Positions 30,814 through 64,000 of a stretch of 64,000 bases of DNA are shown here, one piece after another. The notes beneath the pieces were generated by a model, which was given only the letters and a program-made list of their open reading frames with translations, made no database searches and was not told the origin of the DNA. Position 1 is the first letter of the stretch. The number at the start of each line of letters is the position of its first letter. The position numbers were made by a program, and so were the translations under genes. Origin of the DNA: an uncultured Clostridia bacterium. Lineage in GTDB: Bacteria; Bacillota; Clostridia; TANB77; CAG-508. Where the stretch lies: positions 2,148-66,147 of the forward strand of contig CALXVM010000008.1 of the NCBI GenBank assembly GCA_944392105.1, in the 5' to 3' direction.

Positions 30814-31938
30814 CTGTAGGTTTGTCAAACATATGTCACACTTTCATAGAAACATCTATTGTTGAAATACCAAGTATGACTTTTCTGAACTTTAGTTTCT
30901 TATGTATTCTAAATATTTTTCTTTTGGACTTAACCATTTTAACGGTTTCATAGGAAAATCGTTGTACTCTCTTTCCCATTTTTTTAATCTATTTTTAAAG
31001 TCTTCAAAACTATAAAATACTTTATTGTAGTAAAATCTTTCTTGATCTTTTCTATGACTTCTTTCTACTTTTCCGTTATGCCTTGGTGTCTTCGGTTTTA
31101 TTAGTTTATGTTTTATCCCTAACTCTTCTAATTTCTTCTCAAATCTTGTTTTTCTCTTTGTTGGATTTGGATTTAGCCTATTAGTAAATTCAGTTCCGTT
31201 ATCTGTCTGTATACATTCTATTTTAAATGGAAATGCTTTTATGATATATTCTATAAATTCTGCTGATGCACTTGTGCTTACTTCTTTGCTTGCCCATAGT
31301 TTTCTCATTCTTGTATACTCGTCTATTGCTGTATACTGATAATATCTATCATCTGTTTCTATTACTTCTTTTGTTAAACTTTTCTTTGGTACATATTTTA
31401 CGTCTATTTGTATTCTTTCTCCTGGATACTTCATCTGTTGATATGCTTTTGCTTCATACTCTTTCTTTTTACTTGGTGTTTTCCTATATATTCCTATTCT
31501 TTGCATTACTCTATACAAACTTGTTATACTTCTTGTATATCCTGCTCTTCTTAATTTTATCCACAACACCACTAATCCTGTATCCTTATTTTTGTATTTG
31601 TAATCTTTTATTAGCTTTATTTCTTCTTTTGTATGTTGATTTGGATGGCTATGTGGTTTTCTTGATTTATTAATTAATGATTTTGCTGTACCATCATATT
31701 TTTCTCGCCATCTATATATTGTTTTTCTATGCATTTTAAATTGAATTGCTGCCTTTGTTACTCCATGTTTATAAGAATATTTGATAACTGATTGCTTATA
31801 CATTATATCTTGTGTTATACTATTCATAGGAAATACCTTCTTTCGATAAAGATTTTGTGGTTAAAATCATTTTATCATATTTTTGGTATTTCCTGTTTTT
31901 ATTTTTTCTTACTGTGACATATCTATTGTAAACCTATA
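30814..31938 (-). mobile_element. Insertion sequence (IS481/IS3-like, DDE integrase-type transposase) with ~26-bp imperfect terminal inverted repeats
   Basis: Left end TGTAGGTTTGTCAAACATATGTCACA. The right end reverse-complements to TATAGGTTTACAATAGATATGTCACA. It is flanked by identical 26-bp direct repeats AATAATAAATCCTAAGTTTGATTTTA (30788-30813 and 31939-31964). Confidence 0.8.
30892..31827 (-). CDS. DDE (rve-type) transposase
   Basis: N-terminal HTH (HRKTIYRWREKY). Catalytic candidates are IQIDVKYV, IQTDNGTEF and HNGKVERSH. Confidence 0.85.
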   Translation of the reverse strand: MNSITQDIMYKQSVIKYSYKHGVTKAAIQFKMHRKTIYRWREKYDGTAKSLINKSRKPHSHPNQHTKEEIKLIKDYKYKNKDTGLVVLWIKLRRAGYTRSITSLYRVMQRIGIYRKTPSKKKEYEAKAYQQMKYPGERIQIDVKYVPKKSLTKEVIETDDRYYQYTAIDEYTRMRKLWASKEVSTSASAEFIEYIIKAFPFKIECIQTDNGTEFTNRLNPNPTKRKTRFEKKLEELGIKHKLIKPKTPRHNGKVERSHRKDQERFYYNKVFYSFEDFKNRLKKWEREYNDFPMKPLKWLSPKEKYLEYIRN

Positions 31939-37060: not shown

Positions 37061-37115
37061 GCTGACCTGTCCCCAATTTCCCGATTTGGGAAGTTGGGAC
37101 CTGTCCCTAATTTCC
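37061..37115 (-). repeat. Family-A palindromic repeat, one unit, central loop inverted relative to other copies
   Basis: GCTGACCTGTCCCCAATTTCCCGATTTGGGAAGTTGGGACCTGTCCCTAATTTCC. The loop is GATTT here and AAATC at 3929, 20807 and 63156. The last 9 nt encode G-N-stop of the ATPase. Confidence 0.85.
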
Positions 37116-38945
37116 AACCAGCACTCTTAACGCATTTAATATTGCTAAAACAGATACACCAACATCTGCAAAAACAGCTTGCCACATGTTAGATAAACCA
37201 ATTGCACTTAATATAAGTACTAGTATTTTTACTACAATTGCAAATATAATATTTTGTTTTACAATTTTTAATGTTTTTTTAGAAATTTTTATTGCATCTA
37301 CTACTTTTGAAGGTTCGTCTGTCATTAGTACTACATCTGCCGCTTCAATAGCAGCATCACTGCCAAGTCCTCCCATTGCAATTCCAATATCTGAAATTGC
37401 TAATACAGGAGCATCGTTAATTCCATCTCCAACAAAAGCAAGTTTTCCTTTCTCCGATTTACTTTTCATTAATTCTTCTACTTTTTCTACTTTGTCATTA
37501 GGTAATAACTCTGTATAAACTTCGTCTAAGCCTAATTCTTTTGCTACACTTTCTCCTACAGCTTTCTTATCTCCTGTTAACATTACTATTTTCTTTACAT
37601 TGTTTTTCTTTAACTTTTCAATTGCTTTTTTAGCATCTGCTTTTATTTTATCAGATATTATAATAGTTCCTTTAAATTGATTATTTATAGCTACATATAA
37701 TATTGTTCCTATTTCATTACATTTTATGTATTCAATATTTTTTTCTTGCATTAGTTTTTCGTTTCCTACAAAAACTTCTTTTCCGTCAACTACTGCATTT
37801 ACTCCTAAACCTGATAACTCATGCGTTTCTGATATTTTTTTATTGTCTATATCTTTTCCATATGCTTTTTTTAAAGAATTTGCTATTGGATGATTTGAAA
37901 AGCTTTCGGCATATGCAGCGTATTTAATTAAGTCTTCTTTTGTTATATCTACAGAGTTTACTTTTTTTACTTCAAATACACCTTCTGTTAATGTTCCTGT
38001 TTTGTCAAATACTACTACTTCTGTTTTAGATAAAGCTTCCAAATAATTGCTTCCTTTAACTAATACTCCTAATTTAGATGCCCCACCAATGCCTCCGAAA
38101 AATCCTAATGGTATTGATATAACAAGTGCACAAGGACATGATACTACTAAAAATGTCAATGCTCTATATAGCCATTGTATAAATTCCGTTTCTTTAAATA
38201 TTATTGGTGGAATTATTGCAAGTAATACTGCTATCACAACAACTATTGGTGTATAGTACTTTGCAAATTTACTAATAAAGTTTTCTGACTTAGACTTTTT
38301 ACTACTTGCATTTTCTACTAAATCTAATATTTTGCTAACAGTAGACTCTCCGAAACTCTTTGTTACTTTAATCTCTATTAAACCATTTTGATTTATACTT
38401 CCACTTAATACTTCGTCTCCAATGTTTACTTCTCTTGGAACAGATTCACCCGTTAATGCAGAAGTGTCAAGCATAGAATTTCCGTCTACTATGGTTCCAT
38501 CTAGTGGTACTTTCTCTCCAGGTTTTACTATTATTATATCTCCTATACTTATTTTATCTGGACTTACTTTCTCTATACTGCCATTTTTCTTTATATTTGC
38601 AAAATCTGGTCTAATATCCATAAGGCTAGCTATTGATTTTCTAGATTTATCTACAGCATAGCTTTGGAACATTTCTCCCACTTGGTAAAATAGCATAACT
38701 GCAACTGCTTCTGGATATTCTCCAATTGCGAAAGCACCTATTGTAGCAATTGTCATAAGAAAATTCTCGTCAAAAACTTCTCCTTTAAATATATTCTTTA
38801 TTGCTTCTATAAGTACATCTAATCCCACTATTAAATAACTAATAATATATATTCCAATATTAATCCAAGCATTTTCAAAAGGAATAATTAAAGATATTAA
38901 AAATAATATTAATGCAATTACAACTTTTATTACTTCCTTTTTCAT
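37107..38945 (-). CDS. Heavy-metal translocating P1B-type ATPase (Cd/Zn/Co class likely)
   Basis: CPC motif (VSCPCALVISIP), DKTGTLT, GDGINDAP. No N-terminal HMA domain. It is paired with an ArsR-family gene. Confidence 0.9.
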   Translation of the reverse strand: MKKEVIKVVIALILFLISLIIPFENAWINIGIYIISYLIVGLDVLIEAIKNIFKGEVFDENFLMTIATIGAFAIGEYPEAVAVMLFYQVGEMFQSYAVDKSRKSIASLMDIRPDFANIKKNGSIEKVSPDKISIGDIIIVKPGEKVPLDGTIVDGNSMLDTSALTGESVPREVNIGDEVLSGSINQNGLIEIKVTKSFGESTVSKILDLVENASSKKSKSENFISKFAKYYTPIVVVIAVLLAIIPPIIFKETEFIQWLYRALTFLVVSCPCALVISIPLGFFGGIGGASKLGVLVKGSNYLEALSKTEVVVFDKTGTLTEGVFEVKKVNSVDITKEDLIKYAAYAESFSNHPIANSLKKAYGKDIDNKKISETHELSGLGVNAVVDGKEVFVGNEKLMQEKNIEYIKCNEIGTILYVAINNQFKGTIIISDKIKADAKKAIEKLKKNNVKKIVMLTGDKKAVGESVAKELGLDEVYTELLPNDKVEKVEELMKSKSEKGKLAFVGDGINDAPVLAISDIGIAMGGLGSDAAIEAADVVLMTDEPSKVVDAIKISKKTLKIVKQNIIFAIVVKILVLILSAIGLSNMWQAVFADVGVSVLAILNALRVLVGN

Positions 38946-39906: not shown

Positions 39907-39981
39907 TGGGCTGTAGCCAAGCGGTAAGGCACCAGACTTTGACTCTGGCATGCGCTAGTTCGAATCTAGCCAGCCCAACCA
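39907..39981 (+). tRNA. tRNA-Gln (anticodon UUG)
   Basis: TGGGCTGTAGCCAAGCGGTAAGGCACCAGACTTTGACTCTGG...GCTAGTTCGAATCTAGCCAGCCCAACCA. Anticodon loop CTTTGAC. Confidence 0.88.
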
Positions 39982-40333
39982 ACAAAAAAATCGTTCTAAA
40001 TAGCTTGTATCTAAGGATACAGGCTATTTTATTGTTTTTCACAGTTTATATTTTCGAATAATTTTAGATATTTAATTTTCATTAGAATATCAATGTTTTT
40101 CACGTTTTTTCATTTTTCTTAATTTTTAGTTTTCTAAACTACCAACTAAACAAGCAACATCATTTTTCTTCCATAATCAAATTTTGTTTAGTTGATAAAG
40201 CGATTTTTCTAAACAAATTCTTAATTAAGAAAAATGCAAAATTTATATATGCTAGATGTACCAAAGGTTTTCAAAGAATAAATTTGTTTAGTTGGTAGCT
40301 TAAAATTTGTGATAATTTAATAATTTTTAGTAA

Positions 40334-41557
40334 TTATTTTTCATTTTCAAAGTCATTTTTTTTGTTTTTTTCACTTAATAAACTGTTTCCAATTAGATTT
40401 TCATTTAAGTAATATTGATTTACTTTGTCGATTTCTCTTTCTTTATATTTATCAAAAACTGACGTATATGTATTTAATGTAACACTAATGTCTTTATGTC
40501 CCATTAGTCTTTGAACAACGACAGGAGATACACCACTTTCGATACAACGCGTTCCGAAGGTATGTCGTAATGAGTGACTGGAAATATCAGTAACATTAAA
40601 TTCTTTTTTTAAAATTCTTTTTAATTCATTGTTTATGGTAGAACGTCTACAATATTTACTATTATAAGGTTTAAAAAGTAGTTTTTCTTCATTATTTATT
40701 TGAGTATCTGCAATTTGCATTTGTTCTACAATATAAGGAAAGAGAAAATCTGGAATAGGTAATATCCTTTTTCCTGCGTAGGTTTTAGTTTTATTTCCCA
40801 TTATAATATTACCTTTTTCATCTGTTGTTAATGTTCTATGAATATTCATCCTTTTATGCTGCAAGTCAATATCGTGTGTTGTAAGTGCTAATGCTTCACC
40901 AATTCTTAAACCTGTATACATTTGAATTAAAAATACATTTCTATACTTAAATTCATTTATTGGCTTATCAATAAGCCAATTAGTAAACTGCTGTTGTTCT
41001 TCAACTGTTAATGCACGTACGATTTTATCTTCTTTATCACTTTTGGGTCTAATAACATTTGTCATAGGGTTTTGTGTTATATATCCTTTATTTATTGCAG
41101 TACTAAAAGCCTGATTTAATTGTTGATATGCCTTTTCTATCATTGAATTGCTTAGATGTTTTAAAGAATTTAGATATTCTTGTAATTCATCTGATTTTAT
41201 TGTATCAATATTTTTATTTCCAAGTGGTAATTTTTCTAATTGCTTTATTGAGTGCAAAGTACGTCCGTATTGTGCTGGAGAAATTTGATTTGTGTTATAT
41301 TTTAAATTCAAATTTTGTTTTAAAATCTCACATAGTGGTATTCCATTGTGTTCAATATATAATGGATTTTCTTTTTGATACATAATCGTATCTAAATATT
41401 TTTTTGCATCTTCTTCAGTTTTGAAACTTTTTGTTTTTAACTGCAATTTTCCTGTGTGTATGTCATACTCTCTGTATTGTGCGTTCCAACGTTTTCTTTG
41501 TTTATTAAAAAATACATAGCCTTCACTTGTTCCTTTTTCTGCCATATTACACACCAC
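40334..41557 (-). CDS. Tyrosine recombinase / phage-type integrase
   Basis: C-terminal catalytic region TGLRIGEALAL, HSLRHTFGTRCIESG, LMGHKDISVTLNTYTSV (R-H-R-Y set). Confidence 0.9.
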   Translation of the reverse strand: MVCNMAEKGTSEGYVFFNKQRKRWNAQYREYDIHTGKLQLKTKSFKTEEDAKKYLDTIMYQKENPLYIEHNGIPLCEILKQNLNLKYNTNQISPAQYGRTLHSIKQLEKLPLGNKNIDTIKSDELQEYLNSLKHLSNSMIEKAYQQLNQAFSTAINKGYITQNPMTNVIRPKSDKEDKIVRALTVEEQQQFTNWLIDKPINEFKYRNVFLIQMYTGLRIGEALALTTHDIDLQHKRMNIHRTLTTDEKGNIIMGNKTKTYAGKRILPIPDFLFPYIVEQMQIADTQINNEEKLLFKPYNSKYCRRSTINNELKRILKKEFNVTDISSHSLRHTFGTRCIESGVSPVVVQRLMGHKDISVTLNTYTSVFDKYKEREIDKVNQYYLNENLIGNSLLSEKNKKNDFENEK

Positions 41558-41813
41558 CCTTCTTATTCATTTTCCAAAGTAAGTATGCTGCCAAAGTCAC
41601 AACTTTTCTTTTCCCTATTGTTATTGTAGGAAAATCATTTTGTTTAAATAATTCATAGGCTTGATTTATTCCAATATGTAAGTCTTTTGAAACGTCCTGA
41701 ACAGACAATATTATAAATGGGTTTTGTACTTTGTTTAGATAATTCATTACAACTTGTTCTTTTAAACTAGTTGTTTCTTTTGTATAAATTATATTCTCAT
41801 TTATATTATTCAT
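41547..41813 (-). CDS. Excisionase-like HTH DNA-binding protein
   Basis: Small protein just upstream of and overlapping int. ILSVQDVSKDLHIGINQAYELFK resembles HTH_17/Xis-type motifs. Confidence 0.55.
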   Translation of the reverse strand: MNNINENIIYTKETTSLKEQVVMNYLNKVQNPFIILSVQDVSKDLHIGINQAYELFKQNDFPTITIGKRKVVTLAAYLLWKMNKKGGV

Positions 41814-42382
41814 TTTTTGTCGCCACCTTTCAATAATTTAATTAGTGCTAACTCTATTGTAGTAAGAGAGTTTATAACAGTATTTTCATAATTAATTAAC
41901 TTACTGCCACTATCTCTTTCAAAATCTCTCTCGTAAAATTCCATAAAATTTCTAACACTATTTTTTTTCGTTGGTTTTGTATTATTAGAAACGCTACTTT
42001 TATTCATTAAATCTTGAGTGTACCATATAATATCTTCTTGTGATAGTCCTTTAAATTCTCGCAAATTTCTGTCTATATCTACTAAAATTAAATCTCCATA
42101 AATACTATAAAAAGTTAGTACAATATTTGATTTTGTATGTGATATTGATTTTTTGTTATTACAGATTATATAAAGTTTCTCATATGGGATAATGTCAAGA
42201 TTTTTTTCAACAATAGCTTTTTTTAGTTTTTGCATGTTATCTATAATTTTTATTTCAGGTGTTTGTCCAGCTTTCTTGTATAATACTCGAATAGGAGTAG
42301 TATTTTTTGATTTTGCAATAATAGTATTATCTTTTGAACTTTTTAATTTTTGCTTTTTAGTTGTAATATTTTTATTTCTCAT
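41810..42382 (-). CDS. Hypothetical protein (element-encoded)
   Basis: ORF coupled to its neighbours by 4-nt overlaps. I recognise no motif. Confidence 0.5.
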   Translation of the reverse strand: MRNKNITTKKQKLKSSKDNTIIAKSKNTTPIRVLYKKAGQTPEIKIIDNMQKLKKAIVEKNLDIIPYEKLYIICNNKKSISHTKSNIVLTFYSIYGDLILVDIDRNLREFKGLSQEDIIWYTQDLMNKSSVSNNTKPTKKNSVRNFMEFYERDFERDSGSKLINYENTVINSLTTIELALIKLLKGGDKK

Positions 42383-42753
42383 TTGTTACCACCACCGTTC
42401 CTTAATTTCTTTGCTTTATATAATGTTTTTAAATTATTTTTAAAATGCGTTATTCCTTTATTTCTTAAAGAAACAACTTCTTTCTTTTGTAGTTTTAATC
42501 TTCTACAAATATCGTTTAATCTAACATTTTCAATATATGATAGATATAACACTTTTCTTTCAAGCAATGGAACTATTTTCATAGCAGCATAATAAGTTTC
42601 ATTTGCAAAGATATTTTCTAAATGGTTAATATCTACGTCAATATTGTTTGCATTTTCCATTTGTGCTTGATAATAACTATTTGTAAGTATTTCCTTAATT
42701 TCTTCATTAGGTAGTAAAATGTCTTTTGCGTTATTAGAATTAGTTTTTTTCAT
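42379..42753 (-). CDS. Sigma-70 region-4-type small regulator
   Basis: LERKVLYLSYIENVRLNDICRRLKLQKKEVVSLRNKGITHFKNNL resembles sigma-70 region 4, as seen in regulators of integrative elements. Confidence 0.6.
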   Translation of the reverse strand: MKKTNSNNAKDILLPNEEIKEILTNSYYQAQMENANNIDVDINHLENIFANETYYAAMKIVPLLERKVLYLSYIENVRLNDICRRLKLQKKEVVSLRNKGITHFKNNLKTLYKAKKLRNGGGNK

Positions 42754-43065
42754 ATTTCTCCTTTTACTCCATGGAGATTTATTTTAATTTTCCTAGGTTG
42801 ATTATATGTTAACATAATTAAAAACAAGAAACAAAAAATTAGAAAGGTGCGTGTTGTGCACCTTTCCAAAGTAAAGCTATAACTTATAAGTATAAAACAT
42901 AATAAAAAGTGCATACCATGCACCAAACATTGCCTTGTTTTTTCACTTTTGTTATAAAAAAAGTGAAAAATAGTGATAAGTCATAATTTTGGTGATTTTT
43001 ACGCACCAAAAAATACACCTTCAAAATGAAAGTGTATTTTTTGGTTTTGTATAGTTTATGTTGTT

Positions 43066-43795
43066 TTATTCATTTACAGATATAACATAATCTTTAACAT
43101 TACTTGTTTTTATATCCCAATATTTTATATTTAGCATATCTTGTATATCATAATTATTAATACGTAATTCTTCAAATAGACTACATAGTCTTTCTTTTGA
43201 AGTAATTAGCTTATCTGTTAATATACATTTTCTTGCAGTTGGTTTATGCGTATTATTTGATATTCCTAAAAATAGACCATAATATAGGTTATTTACTTTT
43301 GAGTGTAAATCAATTTCTATTTGAAATTTGTCTAAACCGTGGGTTATTAATAGCATTTGTTAAGCAGATAAAGGCTGTGTTATAGTTACTTTCCATTACT
43401 CCAGTATATTCTTGTTTATATTTATTATTTGTTAGCCCGTTTTTCATTAATACATAGTTAGAATATTTATTTTGCGTAACTTCTAAACTTGAAATTACTA
43501 TTCCATTTTTACTTATATAATATAAATAGAGTAAATTCGTATTAAAAGGGTTTTGATACTTAATATTTTCTACATTGTGCATAGACATATCACAAATATC
43601 ATTTAAGTCAATATTTAATGCGTTGCATATTTCTATTGCCGTAAGAAAGTCTATTAATATCTCGTTGTTTTCATATCTTATAATTGTGGATTTGCTTTTT
43701 CCTATTATATTTCCTAGTTCTTCTGTACTTATATTTTTTAATTGTCTATAATATTTTATTTTCTTACCCAAATTTTCCATATTTGTATCATACAT
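43066..43795 (-). pseudogene. XRE-family HTH regulator with C-terminal domain, split by an apparent frameshift
   Basis: ORFs 43310-43795 (HTH: LGKKIKYYRQLKNISTEELGNIIGKSKSTIIRYE) and 43066-43356 overlap in different frames. Together they read as one ~240-aa protein. Confidence 0.55.
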
Positions 43796-44506
43796 GGTAA
43801 ATCCCCCTATAAAAATATTTTATGTAAAAATAAGAAACAGCATGTTTACATAATTATTATAACATATAGGTTGATATAATTCAACACAAATTGAAATATT
43901 TACCAATTTATGATATAATAAAAGTGTACTTAATAGTAGTTATAGTACATTGGGAAATCTGTTTTTGCAGTATTGTATTTTCCCATTGTAGCAAGTTAAA
44001 TCTTGCAAGATTAGAATATTTCAAGAAATATTCCCTAGCAAGAAACTTGCTAGGGAATTTATAATATTAGCTGTTGCACCTTTTAAAGTGTATTTGTCTA
44101 ATATTGAAAATTGAAAGATTTATAGTCTAAACTATAATGATATTAGTGCAAATACTAAAGAAAGGAGACAACAGCAATGTTAAAACAAAACAAAAAGCGG
44201 AGACGGTTGCGTATAAGCAATAAATATCCGCATTTTCCCAAAACAGAGCTTGATTTTCAGGCTCTGTAATTTTTGTTGACATTTTGTTCCAATTATGGTA
44301 TTATATTTATAGGGAAAATGCTTTGTTTTGTATAGCATAGCTGTACTTCTTAAAGTATTAAGCTACTATCAGTTAATCGGCTGATAGTAGCTTTTTAAAT
44401 ATTACAAATTCGTTGCAAAATTTTACATTTACGTAGATATTAAGTGAACCTATATTGATTATATAAAGGCTAAATGGTATAATTTTTAGCAAAGGGGATT
44501 AAGAAA

Positions 44507-44896
44507 ATGAAAAAAAATATAATTATATGTATTATTATAGCACTAGTGTTTGGAAGTATAGGTTTTATAATTGGATTTAACATTAAAGATAGCTTTTTAC
44601 TAAACAAAAAGGAAAAAGATTTAGTTGGAACATATAGGACACAGGATTGGAATGGACAAGAGGGAATTATAGTTTTAAATAAAGACAAAACTTGCATACA
44701 CCCTTCAGGTTATATGGGGACTTGGTATATAGAAAATGGCAAACTTTATATGGATGTAAATTTTCCAACGATAGCATCTAACAAAGAAAAAACGTCGTAC
44801 TATGAGACTTTTGAAAAAACTGAAAAGAAAAAAATAGAGGTTTTAGTTGTAGAAAAGGGACTAATGTTTTCGTCTAAATTTTTTGAAAAAATATAA
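44507..44896 (+). CDS. Hypothetical membrane-anchored protein
   Basis: RBS AAAGGGGA, N-terminal TM segment, no recognised domain. Confidence 0.5.
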   Translation: MKKNIIICIIIALVFGSIGFIIGFNIKDSFLLNKKEKDLVGTYRTQDWNGQEGIIVLNKDKTCIHPSGYMGTWYIENGKLYMDVNFPTIASNKEKTSYYETFEKTEKKKIEVLVVEKGLMFSSKFFEKI

Positions 44897-45026
44897 CTCT
44901 TTATAAACAACACAGAACACTTGCAAGTTATGAAGTTAATAGTGTATAAATATAGAAAAAATATATATTTAATTATAATATACTTATAATATAAAAAAAT
45001 AAAGCACCTCTTTTCAAAGAGGTGTT

Positions 45027-45278
45027 TTAAAAATCCATTTCTTTTGACAATTCTTCTATTGAATACACTTTATTATTTTTATTGTCTACAAATTGTATAT
45101 CAAAATCACAAACTTTTACAATTTTCATAACAGTTTCAAAAGTAGGATAACTATATCCAGTTTCATAATTAGATATAGTATTATCTGCTAAGTGTAATTC
45201 TTTTCCGACTTGAACCTGCGTCAAGTTTCTTATTTTTCTAATATTCTTTAAAATTAGTCCTATCATAACAATCACCAC
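45027..45278 (-). CDS. XRE-family HTH transcriptional regulator
   Basis: LKNIRKIRNLTQVQVGKELHLADNTISNYETG is a canonical Cro/CI-type HTH. Confidence 0.8.
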   Translation of the reverse strand: MVIVMIGLILKNIRKIRNLTQVQVGKELHLADNTISNYETGYSYPTFETVMKIVKVCDFDIQFVDNKNNKVYSIEELSKEMDF

Positions 45279-45650
45279 ACTTATTATGGCAAAAAACGAT
45301 TATGAAAACATAAAATTTCGATATTCTCGAATTTTTTATTTCCCTTTTATTGATAGATATTGTTATGTTTGATATAATAATTTTAAATATATATTTAAGG
45401 AGGTGCTAACGTTGGATACGGTCGAATTGACCAAAAAAGAACGTACCATACAATTAATAACGTATATTATTTTGTCAATTATAAATATGATATTATCTAT
45501 AAGTATATGCCAATACTTTAATATTGATAATCATATTTTGGGTTATGGACTAACAAGCTATAGTTTGACTTATGAAGCTATTGTATAGTTTGGTCTTACA
45601 CTAATAGACATTGCCATTGTCTATTGGCTATTTGGTAAAAAGTGGTTAAA

Positions 45651-45888
45651 CTAATTTTGATACTCAATAATGTCACTTAGTTTGCACTCTAAAGCATAAC
45701 AAATTTTAGCTAGATTTTCTAAATCAACTCTTATTATTTTGCTTTTATAATATCTGTCAATAACATCATATCTTATGCCAGTTGCAGTTGATAAAGCATT
45801 TCTAGTTATTCCGTTCTTTATCGAGATAGTCTTTTAATTTGATTTTAACTTTGCCAAAGTCTTTAAAATCATTATAACAGTTTCGCAT
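45651..45888 (-). pseudogene. Small XRE-type HTH gene interrupted by a 1-nt frameshift
   Basis: Own translation: ATG 45888 (RBS GGGAGG) gives MRNCYNDFKDFGKVKIKLKDYLDKERNN*. The +1 frame continues KNGITRNALSTATGIRYDVIDRYYKSKIIRVDLENLAKICYALECKLSDIIEYQN*. Restoring one A in GATAAAGAAC joins them. Confidence 0.6.
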
Positions 45889-46087
45889 AAAGTACCTCCC
45901 TTATAATGTATCAGTATATCAATAATTTAATTTTTTGGCATTTAGCATTTTATAGTTTACTTGTTATTAGTATAATTATTTATAAGGAAATATACAAAAT
46001 GTTTTAGATACAAACAGACAAAGGGAATTCACTCTTCCCTTTGTCAATAATATAAATATCCATTTTTCAAGCTCTTTTTATTAGCTC

Positions 46088-46164
46088 TTTATTATTCCTT
46101 TTTATATGAGATAGCCTTCGTAAGCTTAACAAAAATAAAATACCTCCTTTGATTTTCACTTAAA
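46088..46164 (-). repeat. 77-bp direct repeat of the mob-upstream (oriT/promoter-like) block, copy without a downstream gene
   Basis: TTTATTATTCCTTTTTATATGAGATAGCCTTCGTAAGCTTAACAAAAATAAAATACCTCCTTTGATTTTCACT matches 49280-49356 with ~3 mismatches. Confidence 0.8.
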
Positions 46165-46220
46165 TAAAACTTTTTTTAGTTTCTAACATACTAGAACGTC
46201 AAAAGACGTTTCGTATGGTC

Positions 46221-46427
46221 AGGGAAAATTCTTTTCCCTAACAACCCTTTTACGAAAGATAAATAATAAAATTCTTACGAATTTTATTACTTATCTTTCT
46301 ATGCACGATTAATATTTAATTTATTTCGCTAACGCTTCATAAATAAAATATTTTAATCGTGCTATAAAAATATGAGCCAAAGGCTCATATTTTTATAAGC
46401 TTTTGCAAGCCAAAGCTTGCAAAAGCT
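46221..46427. other. Cluster of five consecutive long hairpins (ssDNA-origin / oriT-like region)
   Basis: Stems at 46221-46239 (8 bp), 46254-46299 (21 bp, 1 mismatch), 46304-46361 (imperfect), 46364-46396 (15 bp perfect) and 46398-46427 (13 bp perfect). Confidence 0.6.
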
Positions 46428-46763
46428 ATTGTCTGCCATAATTTATGAAATAATTTTGGTTAATTTTTAATATTTTTTAATAATTTTTCTTAATTTATTT
46501 TAATTTTATATTTTATATTTTCTTAACTTTACAATTGACTTTTAATTAATATATCAATCAAGCCTAAACTGTGTTACTACAGCCTAGGCTTATTACAAGG
46601 TTTTACTATTTTTTAACTTTAAAATAGTGATAAAATTTCCTCCCCTTCAATTAAGTTTTATAATTATATTTTTTTAATTTACTAACAAAAAAATCTATCT
46701 ATTTTTAGTTTATTGCTATTTTTCTAACAAAAGGACATTAGTTTGTTACTAAATGAAATTGTG

Positions 46764-48014
46764 TTATTGCAATTCATAGTTCCATTCTTCTTCTGTTTGG
46801 TCATCTATTTTATGTATACTATCTTCTGTGACATTAGATTTTAGAATAACTACGGGGCGCACCGCAAAGCCGTAGTTGTACTCGCCGCCGTCCGAGAGGA
46901 ACTGGCCGTAACCGCGCACAACGGTATCACCGCCATCCGAATGCACAAAGCGAACACAGAAGTGAGCATAACTCGAGCCAGCAACCACGCAGCGTGAAGC
47001 GAGCCAGTACGCCTTTCCGCTTCTGTACTCAACATTGTCAAAAAGTAAATTATATAATCTCTGGTCTGTAGCTGTTGTTAAAGCTGGGTTATTAGCCATG
47101 TATCCATAATAATCACTTGTTTTACTAAAATTACTCTTTGTTCCTGCTAAGTAGTCTTCTGGACTTGCATATTGGTTTGTATATGAATAAGTCTGTCCAT
47201 AATGCCCACTTTCGTCTAAACTTGGTTTTCCTGTTTCATCTACTGTAACTCCTACTACTTGGTTTACGTCTTCTATTGTTACGCTTCTTGCTGTTTGTGC
47301 CAAGTCATTTTTATATAATGCACATATGTTGTTTAATTCTGTCTCTGCATTTATATATCCTTTAGCACCATTTAAAAAATAATATGGAACTTCTGGATAT
47401 GAAGAATTTGACTCCCTTTTCATTGGGCTTCCTGCTATTAGTTTTATTCCTCCTGTTGCTTCATCTTTTCCTAATACCCTCCATGTTAATTGGTTATTTG
47501 CTACATTAAATATTTGGTCTGAGTCTCCTCCATCTGTTATTAAATCTTCCATCCCTGTTTTACTTCCCAAACTTGTGTAGCTTCCACTTGTTGGATTTTG
47601 GTAGTTTACATAGTCTCCTATTTTTAACTCTCCTGCATCATATAATTCTACTAATGTTCTTGCTGTGTTAAATGTTATTGTTCTGCTTCCTATTGTTACA
47701 CTTCCTGTTTCTTTTATTTGTGCTTTTTCTTCTGCTGTTATTTGTTTTTGACTTTCTAAACTATCTAATAGCTCATCTAAACTTTGCGAACTTCCTCCTA
47801 CATATTCTGTTAATGATTTATCTAATTCCCACATGTCTCTTGCTTCTTCTACTGCTGCCCCTCTTGTTTCTTCTTTTGCCTCTTTTGCTTTTGTTACTAC
47901 TCCATTTTCACTAAATACTAGACTTATTGTTATTCCTGCTAGTATTAGCAATACCACAATAGTAACAACTAGTGCTATTAGCGTTATTCCTCTTTTTCCT
48001 CTTACTCTTTTCAT
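46764..48014 (-). CDS. Pilin-like N-terminus / DUF1566-like C-type-lectin-fold protein with G+C-rich C-terminal patch (element-borne)
   Basis: ATG 48014 with RBS AAGGAGGTG is preferred over the track start 48074. MKRVRGKRG then ITLIALVVTIVVLLILAGITISLVFSENG. C-terminal YWLASRCVVAGSSYAHFCVRFVHSDGG...YGFAVRPVV resembles the DUF1566/Lcl-type fold end. Confidence 0.8.
   Translation of the reverse strand: MKRVRGKRGITLIALVVTIVVLLILAGITISLVFSENGVVTKAKEAKEETRGAAVEEARDMWELDKSLTEYVGGSSQSLDELLDSLESQKQITAEEKAQIKETGSVTIGSRTITFNTARTLVELYDAGELKIGDYVNYQNPTSGSYTSLGSKTGMEDLITDGGDSDQIFNVANNQLTWRVLGKDEATGGIKLIAGSPMKRESNSSYPEVPYYFLNGAKGYINAETELNNICALYKNDLAQTARSVTIEDVNQVVGVTVDETGKPSLDESGHYGQTYSYTNQYASPEDYLAGTKSNFSKTSDYYGYMANNPALTTATDQRLYNLLFDNVEYRSGKAYWLASRCVVAGSSYAHFCVRFVHSDGGDTVVRGYGQFLSDGGEYNYGFAVRPVVILKSNVTEDSIHKIDDQTEEEWNYELQ
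46853..47030 (-). other. G+C-rich patch (DGR-type variable region candidate, VR3)
   Basis: The coding strand reads TAC TGG CTC GCT TCA CGC TGC GTG GTT GCT GGC TCG ... GGC TTT GCG GTG CGC CCC GTA. It is adenine-poor and G+C-rich inside an AT-rich gene. Inverted repeat CTACGG-N14-CCGTAG at its 3' boundary (46851-46876). Confidence 0.55.
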
Positions 48015-48181
48015 TTTTCTTGCACCTCCTTTCGCCTTTTCTTCTTTTATTTGCTTATTTTTCTCTTCTTCCATTTTTTACTTTCTCCCCCCTCTCTTTT
48101 TTGGCACGCAAAAATGACAGGCTATTTTTTATATCATTAATAAAGGCTTTTTCGCCCTTTCTTATTTCTCTAAAACTATTC

Positions 48182-48203
48182 GTGTGTGTGTGTGTGTGTG
48201 TGT
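48182..48203. repeat. (GT)11 dinucleotide microsatellite
   Basis: Counted directly. It lies ~170 nt upstream of the 48014 start, between the mob and variable-protein genes. Confidence 0.95.
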
Positions 48204-48323
48204 ACTCCCCCAACGGTTCTAGCCCCTGTCATCTTTGCGTGCTCCTTTTCTATTTTTTCGTTTGTACTTCTTTATCTTATCATTTACTTTTACTTTTTGC
48301 AATATGTTTTTATTATATTTCTC

Positions 48324-49277
48324 TTACTTCTGAAAATATTTTGTAAAATTATCTACTAATCTTTTAAATCTGTCTAAAGGAAAATCAAAAAGATGTTTTA
48401 CAACTTCAAAGGTCTTTTCAATATAATTTTTTAGTTTACTATTTTCTTTTTTTAATTCTTCGTTTTCTTGCTTTAGCATATAATTTTCTTTTTCTAGTTT
48501 TTCTACTCTATTAATTGCCATATATGATTTACTTAGTTGTTCTTTAAGTTTATTTGTATGTTTAATTAGTTCGTTATTTTGTTTTAATATTAATTCTGGA
48601 TTTTTAGTATTAATTGGCTGTATTTTTTCTTGTGTTATTTCATATTTTATATTTTCATAATTTGTTATTTGTTTTAGTGTTTCTATATTCAAATGTTTAC
48701 TATCACTTGTTTTGCCTCTTTCTAAATTAAAACCATGTTCGATAATGTATTTATAAAAATTATCTTGTAGCTCCCTATAACTATCTTTTCCTTTCCAATA
48801 TTCACTACAGGCAATTTTATCTATTTGTTTTCCTGTTTTTTTATCTTTTTTATGTATGACTGGTATAAATGTTAGATGCATATGGGGTGTAGTTTCATCC
48901 ATGTGTACTTTTGCAGAGAGTATGTATTTTTCTCCTAAGTTTTTATAGTTTGAAACAAAGTCATATGCTGTTTGAAAATATCTTTTTGTTTCTTCTTCTC
49001 CAATTTCTTTGAAATAGTCTTTATCAGATGTAATTATTAATTCACATGCAACATTAGTTGTCTTTATTATTCTTCCTTGTAAATTATTTTCCTTTTGTAA
49101 TATTTTTATTGCATTTAAATATGTAGTATTACATTGTTTTATTGAGTAATTTTTAAATGAATTATTTTTATTAATGTCTTTATTTGAATAATTGGTATTT
49201 TTTCTTTCGTTATGTTTATATAGTCCTGCTAGATTATCTTTTTTGTAATTTGCATTTCTTATAATTGCATAACTCAT
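48324..49277 (-). CDS. MobV-family (Mob/Pre) relaxase
   Basis: N-terminal MSYAIIRNANYKK...HNERK and the HxDExxPHxH motif (HMDETTPHMHLTFIPV). C-terminal coiled coil. Confidence 0.88.
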   Translation of the reverse strand: MSYAIIRNANYKKDNLAGLYKHNERKNTNYSNKDINKNNSFKNYSIKQCNTTYLNAIKILQKENNLQGRIIKTTNVACELIITSDKDYFKEIGEEETKRYFQTAYDFVSNYKNLGEKYILSAKVHMDETTPHMHLTFIPVIHKKDKKTGKQIDKIACSEYWKGKDSYRELQDNFYKYIIEHGFNLERGKTSDSKHLNIETLKQITNYENIKYEITQEKIQPINTKNPELILKQNNELIKHTNKLKEQLSKSYMAINRVEKLEKENYMLKQENEELKKENSKLKNYIEKTFEVVKHLFDFPLDRFKRLVDNFTKYFQK

Positions 49278-49279
49278 TT

Positions 49280-49356
49280 TTTATTATTCCTTTTTATATA
49301 AGATAGCCTTCGTAAGCTTAACAAAAATAAAATACCTCCTTTGATTTTTACTAAAC
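49280..49356 (-). repeat. 77-bp mob-upstream block (oriT/promoter-like), copy adjacent to mob
   Basis: Direct repeat of 46088-46164. It sits immediately 5' of the relaxase ATG. Confidence 0.8.
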
Positions 49357-49739
49357 TGCTTTATTTTTTATTTAACTCTTTTTAATTTTTACTAATTTAT
49401 TTTAATTTTTTATATTAAAACAACTAACTCAACAGTTAGAGCTTAAAGCGTTGAAATAGGTTTATGTAGTCTGTTCAGCCCAACCAACGGAAAATAGCGA
49501 CTTTCATGAAATTGAAAGTTGTTATTTTTTTATAATGTCAAACAAATTCGTTAGTTTCTACAATTTTATGATTAATAGTTATAGTATTGTTTATAAAATC
49601 AAATGCAGACCATTTTAAACTTAAAAATTCACTTCTTCTTCCCCCATAAAAACTAAATAGAAAATAATATTTATAATTTGTAGTAAAATCCAAAAAACAA
49701 TGTTATAATAATAATAGCTTTTTTTGAAAGGGTGATAAA

Positions 49740-53891: not shown

Positions 53892-54033
53892 CTACACCGT
53901 CAAAATACTCGACCTCTTATTTTGCGTTTTGAGACGTTTTGTCCGACTTTCGAATGATTTACATAGGTTGTGCCGATTTAGGCGGTATTTGTGCCTATTA
54001 TGTGCGTTTTAGAGGCATATTTTGTGGTCACAT
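53892..54033 (-). other. Conserved 3' UTR element (copy 3 of 3)
   Basis: Aligns with 25581-25721 along its whole length. Confidence 0.55.
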
Positions 54034-55446
54034 CTAAATTGTGGCTAAGACCGGACGGAACGAGACGCTGCTGTTGCTAACGCCATAGTAACACTCGAAA
54101 TAGAACACGCCAGCACTAGAACCACCGCCGAAATAGGCTCCGCGATAGAAGAAAGGAAGGCTCGTGTGAGGAAAGCTAGAGGAATCGCTGTACCACGATG
54201 TTGCTCCGCTACCGCTTGTGCTCGTTTCGTACACCGCGTCTCCATACACTCCTGCGTTTGCGTTATAATTATTTGTTTGATTTTCTGAGCTTGCTTTACT
54301 ATACACGTTCTTCGTCTTTGGATCTCCATTTACTAAGCTTTTTCCATAGCTTGTTAAATTGCCATTTCCGTTATCTACATACGCTGCTACATATTCCCAT
54401 GCTCCTCCGCTCATATCGTATACTCCCCAGACGTTTCCGGTTGTACTTTGTGCTCCATTATTTACATATGTGTTTCCACTTCCTCCTCCGGTATAATATG
54501 AACTATTGCTATTTATTGTTACTTCATCGTTTTTTCCATATTTACTTCTACTTAAATATGCTACTGCTCCCCACTCGTCATTTTTCATCATATGACTATT
54601 TAATGTCTTATTATAATTTAGACAGTTTGTATATATGCTATCTACTGTTATACTTCTCCAACTCTGTACTCCTGGCTGTACCATTATTTTTCCATTACTA
54701 TTACTTGCTTCAAATTTTGCTACCCATATTCCACTTACTGGTTGTCCATAGTTAAATGCTGGGTGTATTACATATCCATTTGGAAATTGTGTATAATTTG
54801 TTGTTGTACTATCATTATATTCTACTATTGTTTGTCCTGTTGCTGTTTCGTTACTCGTTCCTTTCATAAATTCTATGCTTATTTCTGTTGCTGTACTTGT
54901 ATGGTATCCTGTACTTGGAATATTATATGCATATCTTGGTATCCACACCCACATACTTCCATCTGTAGTTTTTGCATTTGCCCATTTCTTTGCTGAATAA
55001 TCATACCAATCTGAGTCACTTCCGTCCGTTTCTACCCAATCTCCTGCTCCGCCATTTGCTGTTTCGTCCCATTTTATTGCTGTCATTCCTTCTCCTAAGT
55101 TTGGCGTATTTACTCCTTTTGACTCGCTATAACTCCCATCGCTTGGTAATTCTGGCTCAGGTTCCGGTGTTGTACTTCCTCCACCTATTCCATTTAACAT
55201 ATTTTCCATTGCAGCTGTTACATCATTCATTTGTGTTTGTTCATTTATTACTGCTTCTTTTGTTTTATCTGCTGCCTCTCTTGCTTTTGCTATTATTCCA
55301 TTTTCACTAAACACTAAGCTTATTGTTATTCCTGCTAGTATTAAAAGTACTACAATCGTTACAACTAGTGCTATTAGTGTTATACCTTGTGTTTTTTTAC
55401 AATATGCTTTTCTATTATCTTTTTGTAATAAAAACGTTTTCTCCAT
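54034..55446 (-). CDS. Pilin-like N-terminus / C-type-lectin-fold (FGE-sulfatase-like) surface protein with hypervariable C-terminus, paralog 4
   Basis: ATG 55446 with RBS GGGAGG. Leader MEKTFLLQKDNRKAYCKKTQG, then ITLIALVVTIVVLLILAGITISLVF. C-terminal GVYDMSGGAWEYV ... PFFYRGAYFGGGSSAGVFYF ... SFRPVLATI. Confidence 0.8.
   Translation of the reverse strand: MEKTFLLQKDNRKAYCKKTQGITLIALVVTIVVLLILAGITISLVFSENGIIAKAREAADKTKEAVINEQTQMNDVTAAMENMLNGIGGGSTTPEPEPELPSDGSYSESKGVNTPNLGEGMTAIKWDETANGGAGDWVETDGSDSDWYDYSAKKWANAKTTDGSMWVWIPRYAYNIPSTGYHTSTATEISIEFMKGTSNETATGQTIVEYNDSTTTNYTQFPNGYVIHPAFNYGQPVSGIWVAKFEASNSNGKIMVQPGVQSWRSITVDSIYTNCLNYNKTLNSHMMKNDEWGAVAYLSRSKYGKNDEVTINSNSSYYTGGGSGNTYVNNGAQSTTGNVWGVYDMSGGAWEYVAAYVDNGNGNLTSYGKSLVNGDPKTKNVYSKASSENQTNNYNANAGVYGDAVYETSTSGSGATSWYSDSSSFPHTSLPFFYRGAYFGGGSSAGVFYFECYYGVSNSSVSFRPVLATI
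54037..54245 (-). other. G+C-rich hypervariable patch (DGR-type variable region candidate, VR4)
   Basis: Same scaffold codons as VR1 and VR2, with variable NNY codons. A weaker stop-spanning hairpin at 54026-46. Confidence 0.6.
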
Positions 55447-55608
55447 GTTATTCCTCCCACTTTTGTTTCTTTTGTTATTGTTTCCCATTTTTTTATTTTT
55501 AATCATTATTTTACTTTTTGTTCTGCATTACATTTATATATTAACATTTCAAGTTAGTATAATGATTATTAACTTTAATATAGAAACAATTTTATCTCAT
55601 TTTGCAAT

Positions 55609-59912: not shown

Positions 59913-59993
59913 GGAAATTGAGGACAGGTCAAAGAAATTAGGACCAGATCCAAATTTCTTATTTTAAGAAATTTAGATCTGGTCCCAATTTCC
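59913..59993. repeat. Family-A repeat cluster with units in both orientations
   Basis: GGAAATTGAGGACAGGTC and GAAATTAGGACCAGATC are inverted units. Then AAATTTCTTATTTTAAGAAATTT and AGATCTGGTCCCAATTTCC (a forward unit). It ends 2 nt before the deoD stop. Confidence 0.8.
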
Positions 59994-63043: not shown

Positions 63044-63188
63044 AAGATCTGCCTCAAATTTCTTCTTTTAAGAAATTTAAATCTGGTCCCAATTTCTTCT
63101 TTTTAGAAATTTAGATCTGGTCCCATTTTCTTTGCTGACCTGTCCCCAATTTCCCAAATCGGGAAGTTGGGACCTGTCCCTAATTTCC
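63044..63188 (-). repeat. Family-A palindromic repeat array (5 units)
   Basis: AAGATCTGCCTCAAATTTC, AAATCTGGTCCCAATTTC, AGATCTGGTCCCATTTTC, TGACCTGTCCCCAATTTC, GGACCTGTCCCTAATTTCC. Interleaved arms are AAATTTCTT/AAGAAATTT and CCCAATTTCCC/GGGAAGTTGGG. The terminal unit encodes G-N-stop of the GH18 gene. Confidence 0.88.
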
Positions 63189-64000
63189 AAAAAGCTTTTC
63201 TTTTACTATGTCCCATACTTCTGGGCTTTCTCTGTCTTTTTCCCAATATGCTGCTCCTGCTAATTTATATTCGTTTATTAAGTCTAGCTTAGCAGAAATT
63301 GATGTAGTGTCTTCTACCCACATCTTATATACGGCACCATTTTGTGTATATTCTACATAGTATTGTTTTAAGTTGTCATCCCATCTCTTTTCTACATTTG
63401 ATGGAAGTACTTTGTCTACATCTTTTAAGTCTACTGTATCACTGCTAATCTTTCCATTTTCTTCTTTCCATAGTCTTGTATAAAATGGTACTGCTAATAT
63501 AAGTTTGTCAGGGTCTACTCCTTCTTGTCCTAAAAATTTAGTAACGTTTACTTCTACCCAGTCACATCCAGCTGTAGTTCCTTCTTTATTAGAGTTTGCT
63601 CCGTATTGGTCATATGCCATAAAAATAATATAGTCTGCTACTTTACTTATAGTATTTCTGTCAAAGCACATTGACCATGTTTCTGAGCCGTCTGGTGCTG
63701 TTACATCTACAGATAAAACTTTGCCCATTTCATTTAGTCTTGGCTCTAGCTCTATTAAGAATCTATTAAACATTGCCTTATCTTCCATGTACATGTTTTC
63801 AAAGTCTATGTTTATTCCGTCTAAATTATATTTTACAACTAAGTCCACAATATTAGCAATTAATTTATTTCTTAATTTGTAATCGTTCATAATTTCAGAA
63901 GTTGTTTCCATCATAGATTCATTTGAAATCATTGCCCATACTTCTATTCCATTGTTATGTGCCCAATTGATATAATTTAGTCCAGCTGTTCCTACATTTT
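63180..64000 (-). CDS. Glycoside hydrolase family 18 domain protein, N-terminus beyond window edge
   Basis: Catalytic DGINIDFE motif. The reading frame stays open upstream of the track Met to position 64000 (…VGTAGLNYINWAHNNGIEVWAMISNES…). Confidence 0.8.
   Translation of the reverse strand, partial: NVGTAGLNYINWAHNNGIEVWAMISNESMMETTSEIMNDYKLRNKLIANIVDLVVKYNLDGINIDFENMYMEDKAMFNRFLIELEPRLNEMGKVLSVDVTAPDGSETWSMCFDRNTISKVADYIIFMAYDQYGANSNKEGTTAGCDWVEVNVTKFLGQEGVDPDKLILAVPFYTRLWKEENGKISSDTVDLKDVDKVLPSNVEKRWDDNLKQYYVEYTQNGAVYKMWVEDTTSISAKLDLINEYKLAGAAYWEKDRESPEVWDIVKEKLFGN

What the first reader, a model, noticed from the sequence alone, without database searches (positions are those of the whole stretch)
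46851..47030. A different G+C-rich C-terminal patch in a pilin-like gene carried on the integrative mobilizable element
- The gene at 46764-48014 shares the leader and hydrophobic N-terminus of the other three (RG then ITLIALVVTIVVLLILAGITISLVFSENG). Its body is unrelated.
- It ends in a DUF1566-like motif set (YWLASR ... A.F.V.F ... YGFAVRPVV).
- About 180 nt encoding exactly this part are G+C-rich and adenine-poor, inside a very AT-rich gene.
- The patch ends at an inverted repeat CTACGG-N14-CCGTAG.
- 26 ordinary AT-rich codons follow the patch, so it is not terminal.
- Inference: this is a second class of DGR-like target, and it is mobile because it rides an element bounded by att repeats. 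That could spread targets between hosts of the retroelement.
- There is no paralog in the window, so hypervariability itself cannot be shown here.
Basis: partly seen in the sequence, partly recalled or inferred. Interest (0 to 1): 0.7.

Follow-up and report, generated by a model that had tools for sequence, protein, structure and literature searches.

The report
Orphaned DGR variable region on IME
The G+C-rich patch is the hypervariable region of a diversity-generating-retroelement (DGR) target gene that has lost its own retroelement and now rides, apparently frozen, as cargo on a small mobilizable island; it is a clear but not unprecedented case.

Summary
Window 46851-47030 is 55-60% G+C and 14% A on the coding (-) strand, inside a gene that is otherwise 46% A.

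It is a real DGR variable region (VR, 47005->46851). Two related metagenome loci (L006, L009) carry the whole cassette: target, MutS-like gene, Avd, template repeat (TR), reverse transcriptase (RT). 30 of the 35 differences between the window's VR and their Asn-codon-rich TR fall at TR adenines. Close homologues differ almost only in residues 362-402.

The window holds no TR, Avd or RT. The MutS-like gene, Avd and TR have been deleted, leaving a 14-nt gene remnant and the post-TR region.

The gene does sit on a 9.5-kb integrative mobilizable element (39984-49488). It has a tyrosine integrase, a Mob_Pre relaxase and 13-bp repeats at tRNA-Gln. A related strain has the empty site.

This VR allele recurs unchanged in many samples and carries one non-adenine mutation. 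It is therefore most likely a frozen, orphaned VR, not a currently diversifying one. Diversification in trans by a DGR elsewhere in the genome is not excluded.

This is a new member of a known kind. The ectodomain has no Pfam domain and no detectable fold match.

The parts
46851..47005 (-). DGR variable region (VR), 155 nt, residues W357-V408
   Evidence: It aligns without gaps to the TRs of L006 (12127-12281) and L009 (12250-12404). 30 of 35 mismatches to TR_L006 are at TR adenines, binomial p about 1e-12. Close homologues vary almost only here.
47006..47030 (-). G+C-rich coding flank 5' of the VR (E349-Y356), not templated
   Evidence: It has no homology to the TRs of L006 or L009. TR homology starts at GGCTCGC.
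46850..46875 (.). Inverted repeat CTACGG-N14-CCGTAG inside the invariant G+C-rich 3' end of the VR (GGCTTTGCGGTGCGCCCCGTAG), the IMH-like end
   Evidence: Single match, none in shuffles. The sequence is identical in all VRs and TRs compared. Folding is not exceptional. TR and VR diverge immediately 3' of GTAG.
46764..48074 (-). Target gene, 436 aa (alternative start 48014): basic leader, hydrophobic helix, helical stalk, globular ectodomain 125-415 with C-terminal VR, acidic tail
   Evidence: AlphaFold2 gives pLDDT 88 for the full length and 93.7 (pTM 0.90) for residues 125-436. There is no Pfam domain.
47910..47990 (-). Pilin-like hydrophobic N-terminal helix GITLIALVVTIVVLLILAGITISLVFS
   Evidence: Shared with the paralogues. 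The matches to N_methyl and GspG are below threshold. There is no Glu at +5.
46749..46762 (-). 14-nt remnant (ACAATTTCATTTAG) of the MutS-like accessory gene (codons about 11-15)
   Evidence: It matches the truncated MSL gene of L001 and L007 and the intact MSL genes of L006 and L009.
46544..46748 (-). Relic of the region that follows the TR in complete cassettes (post-TR region)
   Evidence: It is homologous to L006 12320-12500, L009 12548-12761 and L001 11617-11873.
48182..48203 (.). (AC)11 tract about 107 nt upstream of the ATG at 48074, length-polymorphic among homologous loci (n = 3-11)
39984..49488 (.). Integrative mobilizable element, 9,505 bp, carrying the target gene
   Evidence: The empty site in L015 joins window 39983 directly to 49489, and the flanks are 96-98% identical. 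Parts of the element are 100% identical in three other samples.
39971..39983 (+). attL core CAGCCCAACCAAC at the 3' end of tRNA-Gln (39907-39981)
49476..49488 (+). attR core CAGCCCAACCAAC
40334..41557 (-). Tyrosine integrase of the element
   Evidence: Pfam Phage_integrase 1.4e-29, plus Arm-DNA-bind_4.
48324..49277 (-). Mob_Pre (MobV-type) relaxase, directly upstream of the target gene
   Evidence: Pfam Mob_Pre 8.4e-42.
46088..46181 (.). Partial duplicate of the region upstream of mob (second copy at 49280-49373). Together the two copies bracket the post-TR relic, the target gene and mob.
   Evidence: 96% identity over 76 nt.

Best explanation
What it is:
- The patch is the variable region of a diversity-generating retroelement (DGR) target gene.
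- In intact relatives, a reverse transcriptase copies an Asn-codon-rich template repeat with adenine-specific errors. Avd and a MutS-like accessory protein (MSL) are encoded alongside it. The cDNA replaces the last 155 nt of the ectodomain-coding sequence.
- This explains the composition. The invariant positions avoid A and are G+C-rich. The former A positions are randomised.
- The product is a membrane-anchored or pilin-like surface protein. Its predicted C-terminal beta-sheet carries about 20 variable residues.

State of the window's copy:
- It has lost MSL, Avd, TR and RT through deletions.
- The remaining module is the target gene plus the post-TR relic. It sits as cargo in a 9.5-kb integrase + Mob_Pre element inserted at tRNA-Gln.
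- The VR is most likely a frozen allele that now changes only by ordinary point mutation.

Shown: VR identity, hypervariability in relatives, absence of the machinery from the window, the deletion scars, the boundaries of the element.
Inferred: that the allele is currently static, and that the protein is displayed on the cell surface.

Confidence by part: about 0.95 that this is a DGR variable region, about 0.9 that it lies on the mobilizable element, and about 0.65-0.7 that the allele is currently static. The overall figure of 0.7 refers to the whole statement.
For: TR/VR relationship:
- Against the TRs of L006 and L009, 30 of 35 mismatches are at TR adenines.
- The own TR/VR pairs give 23 of 26 (L006) and 30 of 33 (L009).
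- The TR has 15 AAY codons.

Cassette in relatives:
- L006 and L009 carry target, MutS_I-like gene, bAvd, TR and RVT_1 RT. The Avd family is confirmed by NCBIfam.

Hypervariability:
- 93-99% identical homologues differ almost only at residues 362-402.

Absence from the window:
- No TR, RT or Avd is found.
- An MSL remnant and the post-TR region lie directly after the stop codon.
- The RT at the equivalent chromosomal locus (L001) is truncated and fused to a YefM-like antitoxin.

Frozen allele:
- The same VR protein sequence occurs in 11 distinct protein variants, counting the window's own. They lie on more than 20 contigs.
- L001-L005 come from five samples, and in each of them the VR matches TR_L006 with the same identity. 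Compared base by base, L001 differs from the window's VR by 1 nt.
- That difference is T->A at a non-adenine TR position. Any new retrohoming event would erase it.
- Loci that carry a cassette show a different VR in nearly every protein.

The element:
- Empty site in L015, integrase, relaxase and 13-bp direct repeats.
Against: - L001, L007 and L008 share one deletion junction yet carry different VR alleles, and the differences sit at TR adenines (26 of 29 and 20 of 25). Diversification after loss of the local cassette, in trans, therefore cannot be excluded.
- Only 64 kb of the genome is visible. A compatible DGR could lie elsewhere.
- The G+C-rich 3' end of the VR is intact.
- The allele counts come from clusters built at 90% identity, which biases them somewhat towards shared VRs.
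Confidence: 0.7

Rival explanations
1. Live remote target. The VR carried on the element is still diversified in trans, by a DGR of the same TR family located elsewhere in the host genome or on a prophage. The element would then deliver a ready-made substrate to hosts that own the retroelement.
For: - Remote targets and trans action of avd-TR-rt are established for DGRs (PMC5758913, read).
- The invariant G+C-rich 3' end is intact and identical to that of the TRs.
- Loci without a cassette that share one deletion junction still carry 11 VR alleles, which differ at TR adenines.
- L006 shows an intact cassette at a chromosomal locus next to a prophage lysis module.
Against: - No TR or RT lies in the 64 kb.
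- The allele is identical across samples and across the chromosome-to-element transfer.
- It retains a non-adenine mutation that retrohoming would overwrite.
- Alleles are few and widely shared. They are not unique per strain, as they are in the cassette-bearing types.
Confidence: 0.22
2. Not DGR-related. The patch would be a foreign G+C-rich segment, acquired by recombination or kept by structural or codon constraint.
For: The composition is atypical for the host. There is no repeat within the window.
Against: - Non-coding TR copies exist next to Avd and RT in related loci.
- The mismatches are adenine-specific, p about 1e-12.
- Variation among homologues is site-restricted.
Confidence: 0.02
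3. The gene is chromosomal and only adjacent to mobile genes. The att repeats would be a chance match, so the target would not be mobile.
For: - The repeat is only 13 bp.
- The target module is mosaic, with a duplicated mob-upstream segment. It is homologous to chromosomal loci such as L001.
Against: - The empty site in L015 joins the two flanks exactly at the repeat.
- Other strains carry different elements at the same tRNA-Gln site.
- The integrase and the relaxase are both intact.
- The element is 100% identical in other samples.
Confidence: 0.04

Closest known systems
DGRs with a C-terminal variable region and the Avd + MSL (MutS-like) accessory pair, e.g. the Legionella pneumophila LdtA DGR (VR class CLec2 / category 'd' of Wu et al. 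2018, PMC5758913)
   Same: - C-terminal VR and a TR rich in AAY codons.
- Adenine-specific TR-to-VR differences and an invariant G+C-rich 3' end.
- Avd together with a small MutS-like gene.
- G+C content atypical for the host, and location on a horizontally acquired island.
- VR motifs of the kind YW..S ... VRPV.
   Different: - No DUF1566, DUF823 or Fib_succ_major hit here.
- A pilin-like anchor instead of a lipoprotein signal.
- In the window the RT, TR, Avd and MSL are missing.
Remote (non-adjacent) DGR targets, e.g. the Treponema denticola TvpA paralogues
   Same: A target gene with a VR but no adjacent RT or TR. There are several targets per genome (here, the three FGE-type genes plus this one).
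   Different: - The Treponema targets match a TR in the same genome. No TR is visible here.
- The deletion scars show that this locus once had its own cassette.
[quoted passage not shown]
   Same: DGR-diversified surface or pilus-related proteins carried on integrative elements inserted in tRNA genes. Evolvable loci are transferred horizontally.
   Different: - There the whole DGR is on a self-transmissible ICE and is active.
- Here only the target gene is on a small mobilizable element in an uncultured Clostridia-like organism.
- Here the N-terminus is type-IV-pilin-like, and the match is below threshold.
Bordetella phage BPP-1 Mtd / brt (prototype DGR)
   Same: The mechanism inferred: TR RNA is copied into cDNA with errors at A, and homing into the VR is bounded by a G+C-rich IMH.
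   Different: - The protein fold and domain are different, and the target is cellular rather than a phage tail fibre.
- In the relatives the RT is encoded on the opposite strand.

Membership tests
DGR variable region | A cognate template repeat that differs from the VR (almost) only at adenines | tested here: inconclusive
   Not met inside the window. Met against the TRs of homologous loci: 30 of 35 mismatches at TR adenines. The own TR/VR pairs give 23 of 26 (L006) and 30 of 33 (L009). The rest of this genome could not be searched.
DGR variable region | DGR-type reverse transcriptase and an accessory protein (Avd) in the locus | tested here: not met
   The window has none: tblastn with the L006 RT, Avd and MSL, plus a motif scan. 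They are present in L006 and L009. The window keeps only a 14-nt MSL remnant and the post-TR region.
DGR variable region | Site-restricted hypervariability among otherwise near-identical homologues | tested here: met
   (residues 362-402). (26 of 29 and 20 of 25 nucleotide differences at TR-adenine positions).
DGR variable region | VR at the 3' end of an ORF, with an invariant G+C-rich end (IMH-like) where TR and VR homology stops | tested here: met
   GGCTTTGCGGTGCGCCCCGTAG is identical in all VRs and TRs. The sequences diverge right after it. The function of this end was not tested.
DGR variable region | TR rich in AAY (Asn) codons | tested here: met
   15 AAY codons in TR_L006.
DUF1566 / C-type-lectin-fold variable protein | Match to Pfam DUF1566, FGE-sulfatase or related models | tested here: not met
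   The protein has no hit, and no such family is among the 25 most-matched of the 63 families hit by the 66 relatives. hhalign against the FGE-type paralogues aligns only the VR, with probability 2.6%.
DUF1566 / C-type-lectin-fold variable protein | Structural similarity to solved C-type-lectin-fold DGR proteins (Mtd, TvpA, AvpA) | tested here: not met
   A confident model (pLDDT 93.7, pTM 0.90) finds nothing in the PDB (best E 0.086, TM below 0.2) or in BFVD. Foldseek may miss a small, divergent sub-domain, so a lectin-like core is not excluded.
Type IV pilin / pseudopilin | Class III signal: G(-1), hydrophobic +1, Glu at +5, N_methyl motif above threshold | tested here: not met
   The sequence is KRG|ITLIA, with Ala at +5. 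N_methyl scores 14.7 bits against a cutoff of 21.2. GspG scores 22.8 bits against 88.9. No pilus assembly genes are found among the ORFs scanned.
Integrative mobilizable element (IME) | Integrase plus relaxase, direct repeats at the ends, an empty site in a relative, and no conjugation apparatus | tested here: met
   Integrase and Mob_Pre. 13-bp direct repeats at tRNA-Gln. Empty site in L015. No type IV secretion genes were found among the called genes of the 9.5 kb; not every small ORF was scanned. Excision and transfer were not tested.

The most novel reading that the evidence does not exclude
The element is a portable 'plug-in' DGR substrate: an IME that carries only a target gene, with an intact VR and IMH-like end. 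Any host or prophage that owns a DGR of the same TR family could then diversify it in trans, which would uncouple the spread of targets from the spread of the diversifier. In addition, the ectodomain may be a DGR scaffold that is not a C-type-lectin or Ig fold. The family has 991 clusters at 50% identity, no Pfam domain and no structural match.
Probability: 0.15. Interest if true: 0.65.

Novelty: new member of a known kind. Interest (0 to 1): 0.4.

Why it matters
- It documents, with breakpoints, how a DGR decays. A complete cassette loses MSL, Avd and TR and has its RT truncated, and a further deletion follows.
- It shows that the surviving, still intact variable-protein gene can be picked up by a small mobilizable island.
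- If resident retroelements can re-activate such orphan targets, mobile elements would be trading 'evolvable' surface-protein genes in gut Clostridia.
- The target family is large and unannotated, and its confidently predicted fold has no match. It is a candidate new scaffold for programmed hypervariation.

Tried and rejected
- Repeat search of all four G+C-rich patches against the whole window. It finds only the mutual similarity of the three FGE-type VRs and no TR.
- tblastn of the L006 RT, Avd, MSL and orf93, plus RT motif regular expressions, over six frames of the window. Nothing found.
- Exact 22-mer of the VR/TR end. In genome contigs it finds only three related VRs in uncultured Clostridia MAGs, so the window's own genome is not there. 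In viral contigs it finds nothing.
- TR-specific 24-mer in metagenome contigs. One short MSL-Avd-TR contig, L024.
- Profile search of viral contigs with the ectodomain alignment. No relatives.
- Sequence search of the PDB with the family profile. Only weak pilin-like N-terminal hits.
- Foldseek of the full-length and trimmed models against the PDB and BFVD. No significant hit.
- Pfam, NCBIfam and PHROGs. No domain beyond the pilin-like matches below threshold.
- The inverted repeat as a special hairpin. Rejected, because its folding energy is ordinary.
- Rfam over the element. Only the two tRNAs.
- Look-up of P0129, which carries the same VR allele including Q391. Not on record.
- The G+C-rich ORF at 2379-2600, considered as a possible TR. 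It has no similarity to any VR.

Full report
**1.

- The ORF at 46764-48074 (- strand) encodes 436 aa. A second possible start at 48014 has an AAGGAGG Shine-Dalgarno sequence.
- Its N-terminal helix GITLIALVVTIVVLLILAGITISLVFSENG is identical to that of the ORFs at 25722-27242 and 54034-55506, and close to that of 11848-13185.
- Window 46851-47030 has G+C of 0.55-0.59. The rest of the gene is 0.30-0.37 and the downstream spacer about 0.2.
- On the coding strand the patch is 14% A and its 155-nt core is 11% A. The rest of the gene is 46% A.
- The inverted repeat CTACGG-N14-CCGTAG is at 46850-46875, with none expected by chance. Its predicted stability is ordinary.
- 28 AT-rich codons follow the patch. 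Nothing else in the window resembles it.

**2. It is a DGR variable region**

- A homology search found more than 5,500 relatives, none of them named or carrying a Pfam domain.
- In an alignment of the 24 closest relatives, sequences 93-99% identical to the window's protein differ almost only at residues 362-402, at a fixed set of positions.
- Two homologous metagenome loci carry a complete cassette directly after the target gene: a 150-aa MutS_I-like gene, bAvd, a non-coding repeat of the patch, and an RVT_1 reverse transcriptase on the opposite strand (L006; L009). NCBIfam confirms the Avd family.
- The repeat in these loci is a template repeat. It encodes WLASRCVNANSSNANFNVRYVKSNDDDTNVNGNNLFNSNGDENNNGFAVRPV, with 15 AAY codons.
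- It differs from its own VR at 23 of 26 (L006) and 30 of 33 (L009) positions that are TR adenines.
- The window's patch differs from TR_L006 at 35 positions, 30 of them TR adenines. The binomial p is about 1e-12, given 28% A in the TR.
- The TR homology defines the VR as window 47005->46851. The next 25 nt upstream (47006-47030) are G+C-rich but not templated.
- TR and VR are identical through GGCTTTGCGGTGCGCCCCGTAG and diverge immediately afterwards. This is the expected position of an IMH-like boundary.
- The small MutS-like accessory gene (MSL) that accompanies Avd is a described DGR accessory class. Remote targets and atypical G+C content are also described features (PMC5758913).

**3. 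The window's copy has lost its retroelement**

- No TR, RT, Avd or MSL is detectable in the 64 kb. The ORFs scanned are housekeeping genes, the four targets, an IS and the island.
- The sequence right after the stop codon (46748-46544) is homologous to the region that follows the TR in L006 and L009.
- A chromosomal relative, found as L001-L005, L007 and L008, shows the intermediate state. The target, its terminator and the first 17 codons of MSL are joined by a GATA(T)AATAT microhomology to the post-TR region. The RT is reduced to a fragment fused to a YefM-like antitoxin.
- The window retains 14 nt of that MSL remnant (46762-46749). It has a further deletion of about 230 nt that removes the original stop codon and terminator. 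This changes the C-terminus from ...NYEGGLD to ...NYELQ.

**4. The mobile-element claim is correct**

- The 13-mer CAGCCCAACCAAC occurs at the 3' end of tRNA-Gln (39971-39983) and again at 49476-49488.
- A strain with 96-98% identical flanks (L015) joins 39983 directly to 49489, which is the empty site.
- The 9,505-bp insert encodes a tyrosine integrase (40334-41557), DUF3846, two HTH proteins, the target gene and a Mob_Pre relaxase (48324-49277). It has no detected conjugation genes. It is therefore an integrative mobilizable element (IME).
- Other strains carry unrelated elements at the same tRNA.
- Parts of this element are 100% identical in three more samples.
- The target module (46544-48329) lies between mob and a partial duplicate of the mob-upstream region (46088-46181 and 49280-49373). 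The island is therefore mosaic.
- L009 has the complete cassette flanked by a mob fragment, an integrase fragment and a sequence 81% identical to the island's attL-proximal arm. A related element probably once carried a whole DGR.

**5. Is the VR still diversifying?**

Most likely it is not diversifying in this lineage.

- The VR protein sequence of the window is shared by 11 distinct protein variants, counting the window's own. They lie on more than 20 contigs. Base by base, L001 differs from the window's VR by one base, and L002-L005, from four further samples, match the TR with the same identity as L001.
- That base is a T->A change (Leu391 to Gln) at a non-adenine TR position. Retrohoming would erase it.
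- The same Gln variant is also found in chromosomal-type (EGGLD) proteins P0003 and P0129.
- Among 38 cassette-less 'EGGLD' proteins there are only 11 VR alleles, and three of them are shared by 7-12 variants each. Proteins of the cassette-bearing types almost all have unique VRs.

Two caveats apply.

- Loci that share the same deletion junction still differ from each other at TR adenines (26 of 29 and 20 of 25). Rare trans-diversification or recombination of VR alleles is therefore not excluded.
- Only 64 kb of this genome is visible.

**6. The protein**

- AlphaFold2 predicts a basic leader, a hydrophobic helix (29-55), a helical stalk (59-123) and a globular ectodomain (125-415).
- The last five long beta-strands of the ectodomain are the VR (pLDDT 88.4 for the full length; 93.7 and pTM 0.90 for residues 125-436).
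- Foldseek finds no significant match in the PDB or BFVD, including the C-type-lectin-fold DGR proteins.
- Pfam, NCBIfam and PHROGs give nothing beyond N_methyl and GspG matches below threshold.
- hhalign against the FGE-type paralogues aligns only YW...VRPV of the VR, with 2.6% probability.
The pilin label is not established, because there is no Glu at +5.
- The ectodomain family comprises 991 clusters at 50% identity. It is absent from IMG/VR.

**7. Comparison with known systems, and verdict**

- Mechanistically this is an ordinary Avd/MSL-type DGR target.
- DGRs on integrative elements at tRNA genes that diversify pilus-associated adhesins are already known in Bacteroides (10.1101/2024.11.15.621889). 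Remote targets are known too (PMC5758913).
- What is particular here is a target gene alone, stripped of its diversifier, carried by a small IME in an uncultured low-G+C Clostridia-like organism (related VRs occur in Clostridia MAGs). Its scaffold is unannotated.
- Verdict: a new member of a known kind, of moderate interest.

Noticed in passing
window 48182-48203: There is an (AC)11 tract on the coding strand, about 107 nt upstream of the target's ATG. The same tract is present in every homologous locus, with n = 3, 8, 10 or 11. It may be a phase-variation switch for the DGR target.
   Followed up: partly
window 11750-11847, 25620-25721, 53935-54033: The three FGE-sulfatase-like pilin-like targets share a conserved non-coding element of about 100 nt immediately after their stop codons. 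It is a candidate cis element for retrohoming or termination. Their common TR is not in the window.
   Followed up: partly
window 11848-13238: The ORF of the first FGE-type target starts inside the hydrophobic helix (VTIVVLLILAS...), although nucleotide similarity to the leader continues upstream to about 13238. Its N-terminus is probably disrupted.
   Followed up: no
window 46088-46181 and 49280-49373 (also 46454-46515 and 49366-49417): The region upstream of the Mob_Pre gene is partly duplicated on the far side of the target module. The two copies bracket the post-TR relic, the target gene and mob. It could be an oriT or promoter copy that marks how the module was acquired.
   Followed up: partly
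window 39907-39983; loci L014-L020: tRNA-Gln is an integration hot spot. Other strains carry a different integrase + Mob_Pre + ABC-transporter element (L014, L016-L018, L020) or a serine-recombinase element (L019) at the same site, and L015 is empty.
   Followed up: yes
L001 11879-12451 (also L007, L008): The ORF annotated as PhdYeFM antitoxin at the decayed chromosomal DGR locus is an RT fragment fused to a YefM-like domain.
   Followed up: partly
window 30892-31827: An rve-family transposase (IS) is absent from the otherwise collinear strain L015.
   Followed up: no
window 3899-3962, 20781-20840, 37063-37117, 59952-59992, 63045-63192: A dispersed intergenic repeat of about 60 nt is also present in loci L001 and L013-L019. 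It looks like a REP-like or terminator-like element.
   Followed up: no
window 2379-2600: A G+C-rich (0.48-0.51), A-rich short ORF lies upstream of a pseudouridine synthase gene. It has no similarity to any VR in the window.
   Followed up: partly
L006 12299-12321 and L009 12422-12444: An AT-rich hairpin directly after the TR shows compensatory changes between the two loci. It falls within the segment deleted from the window.
   Followed up: no
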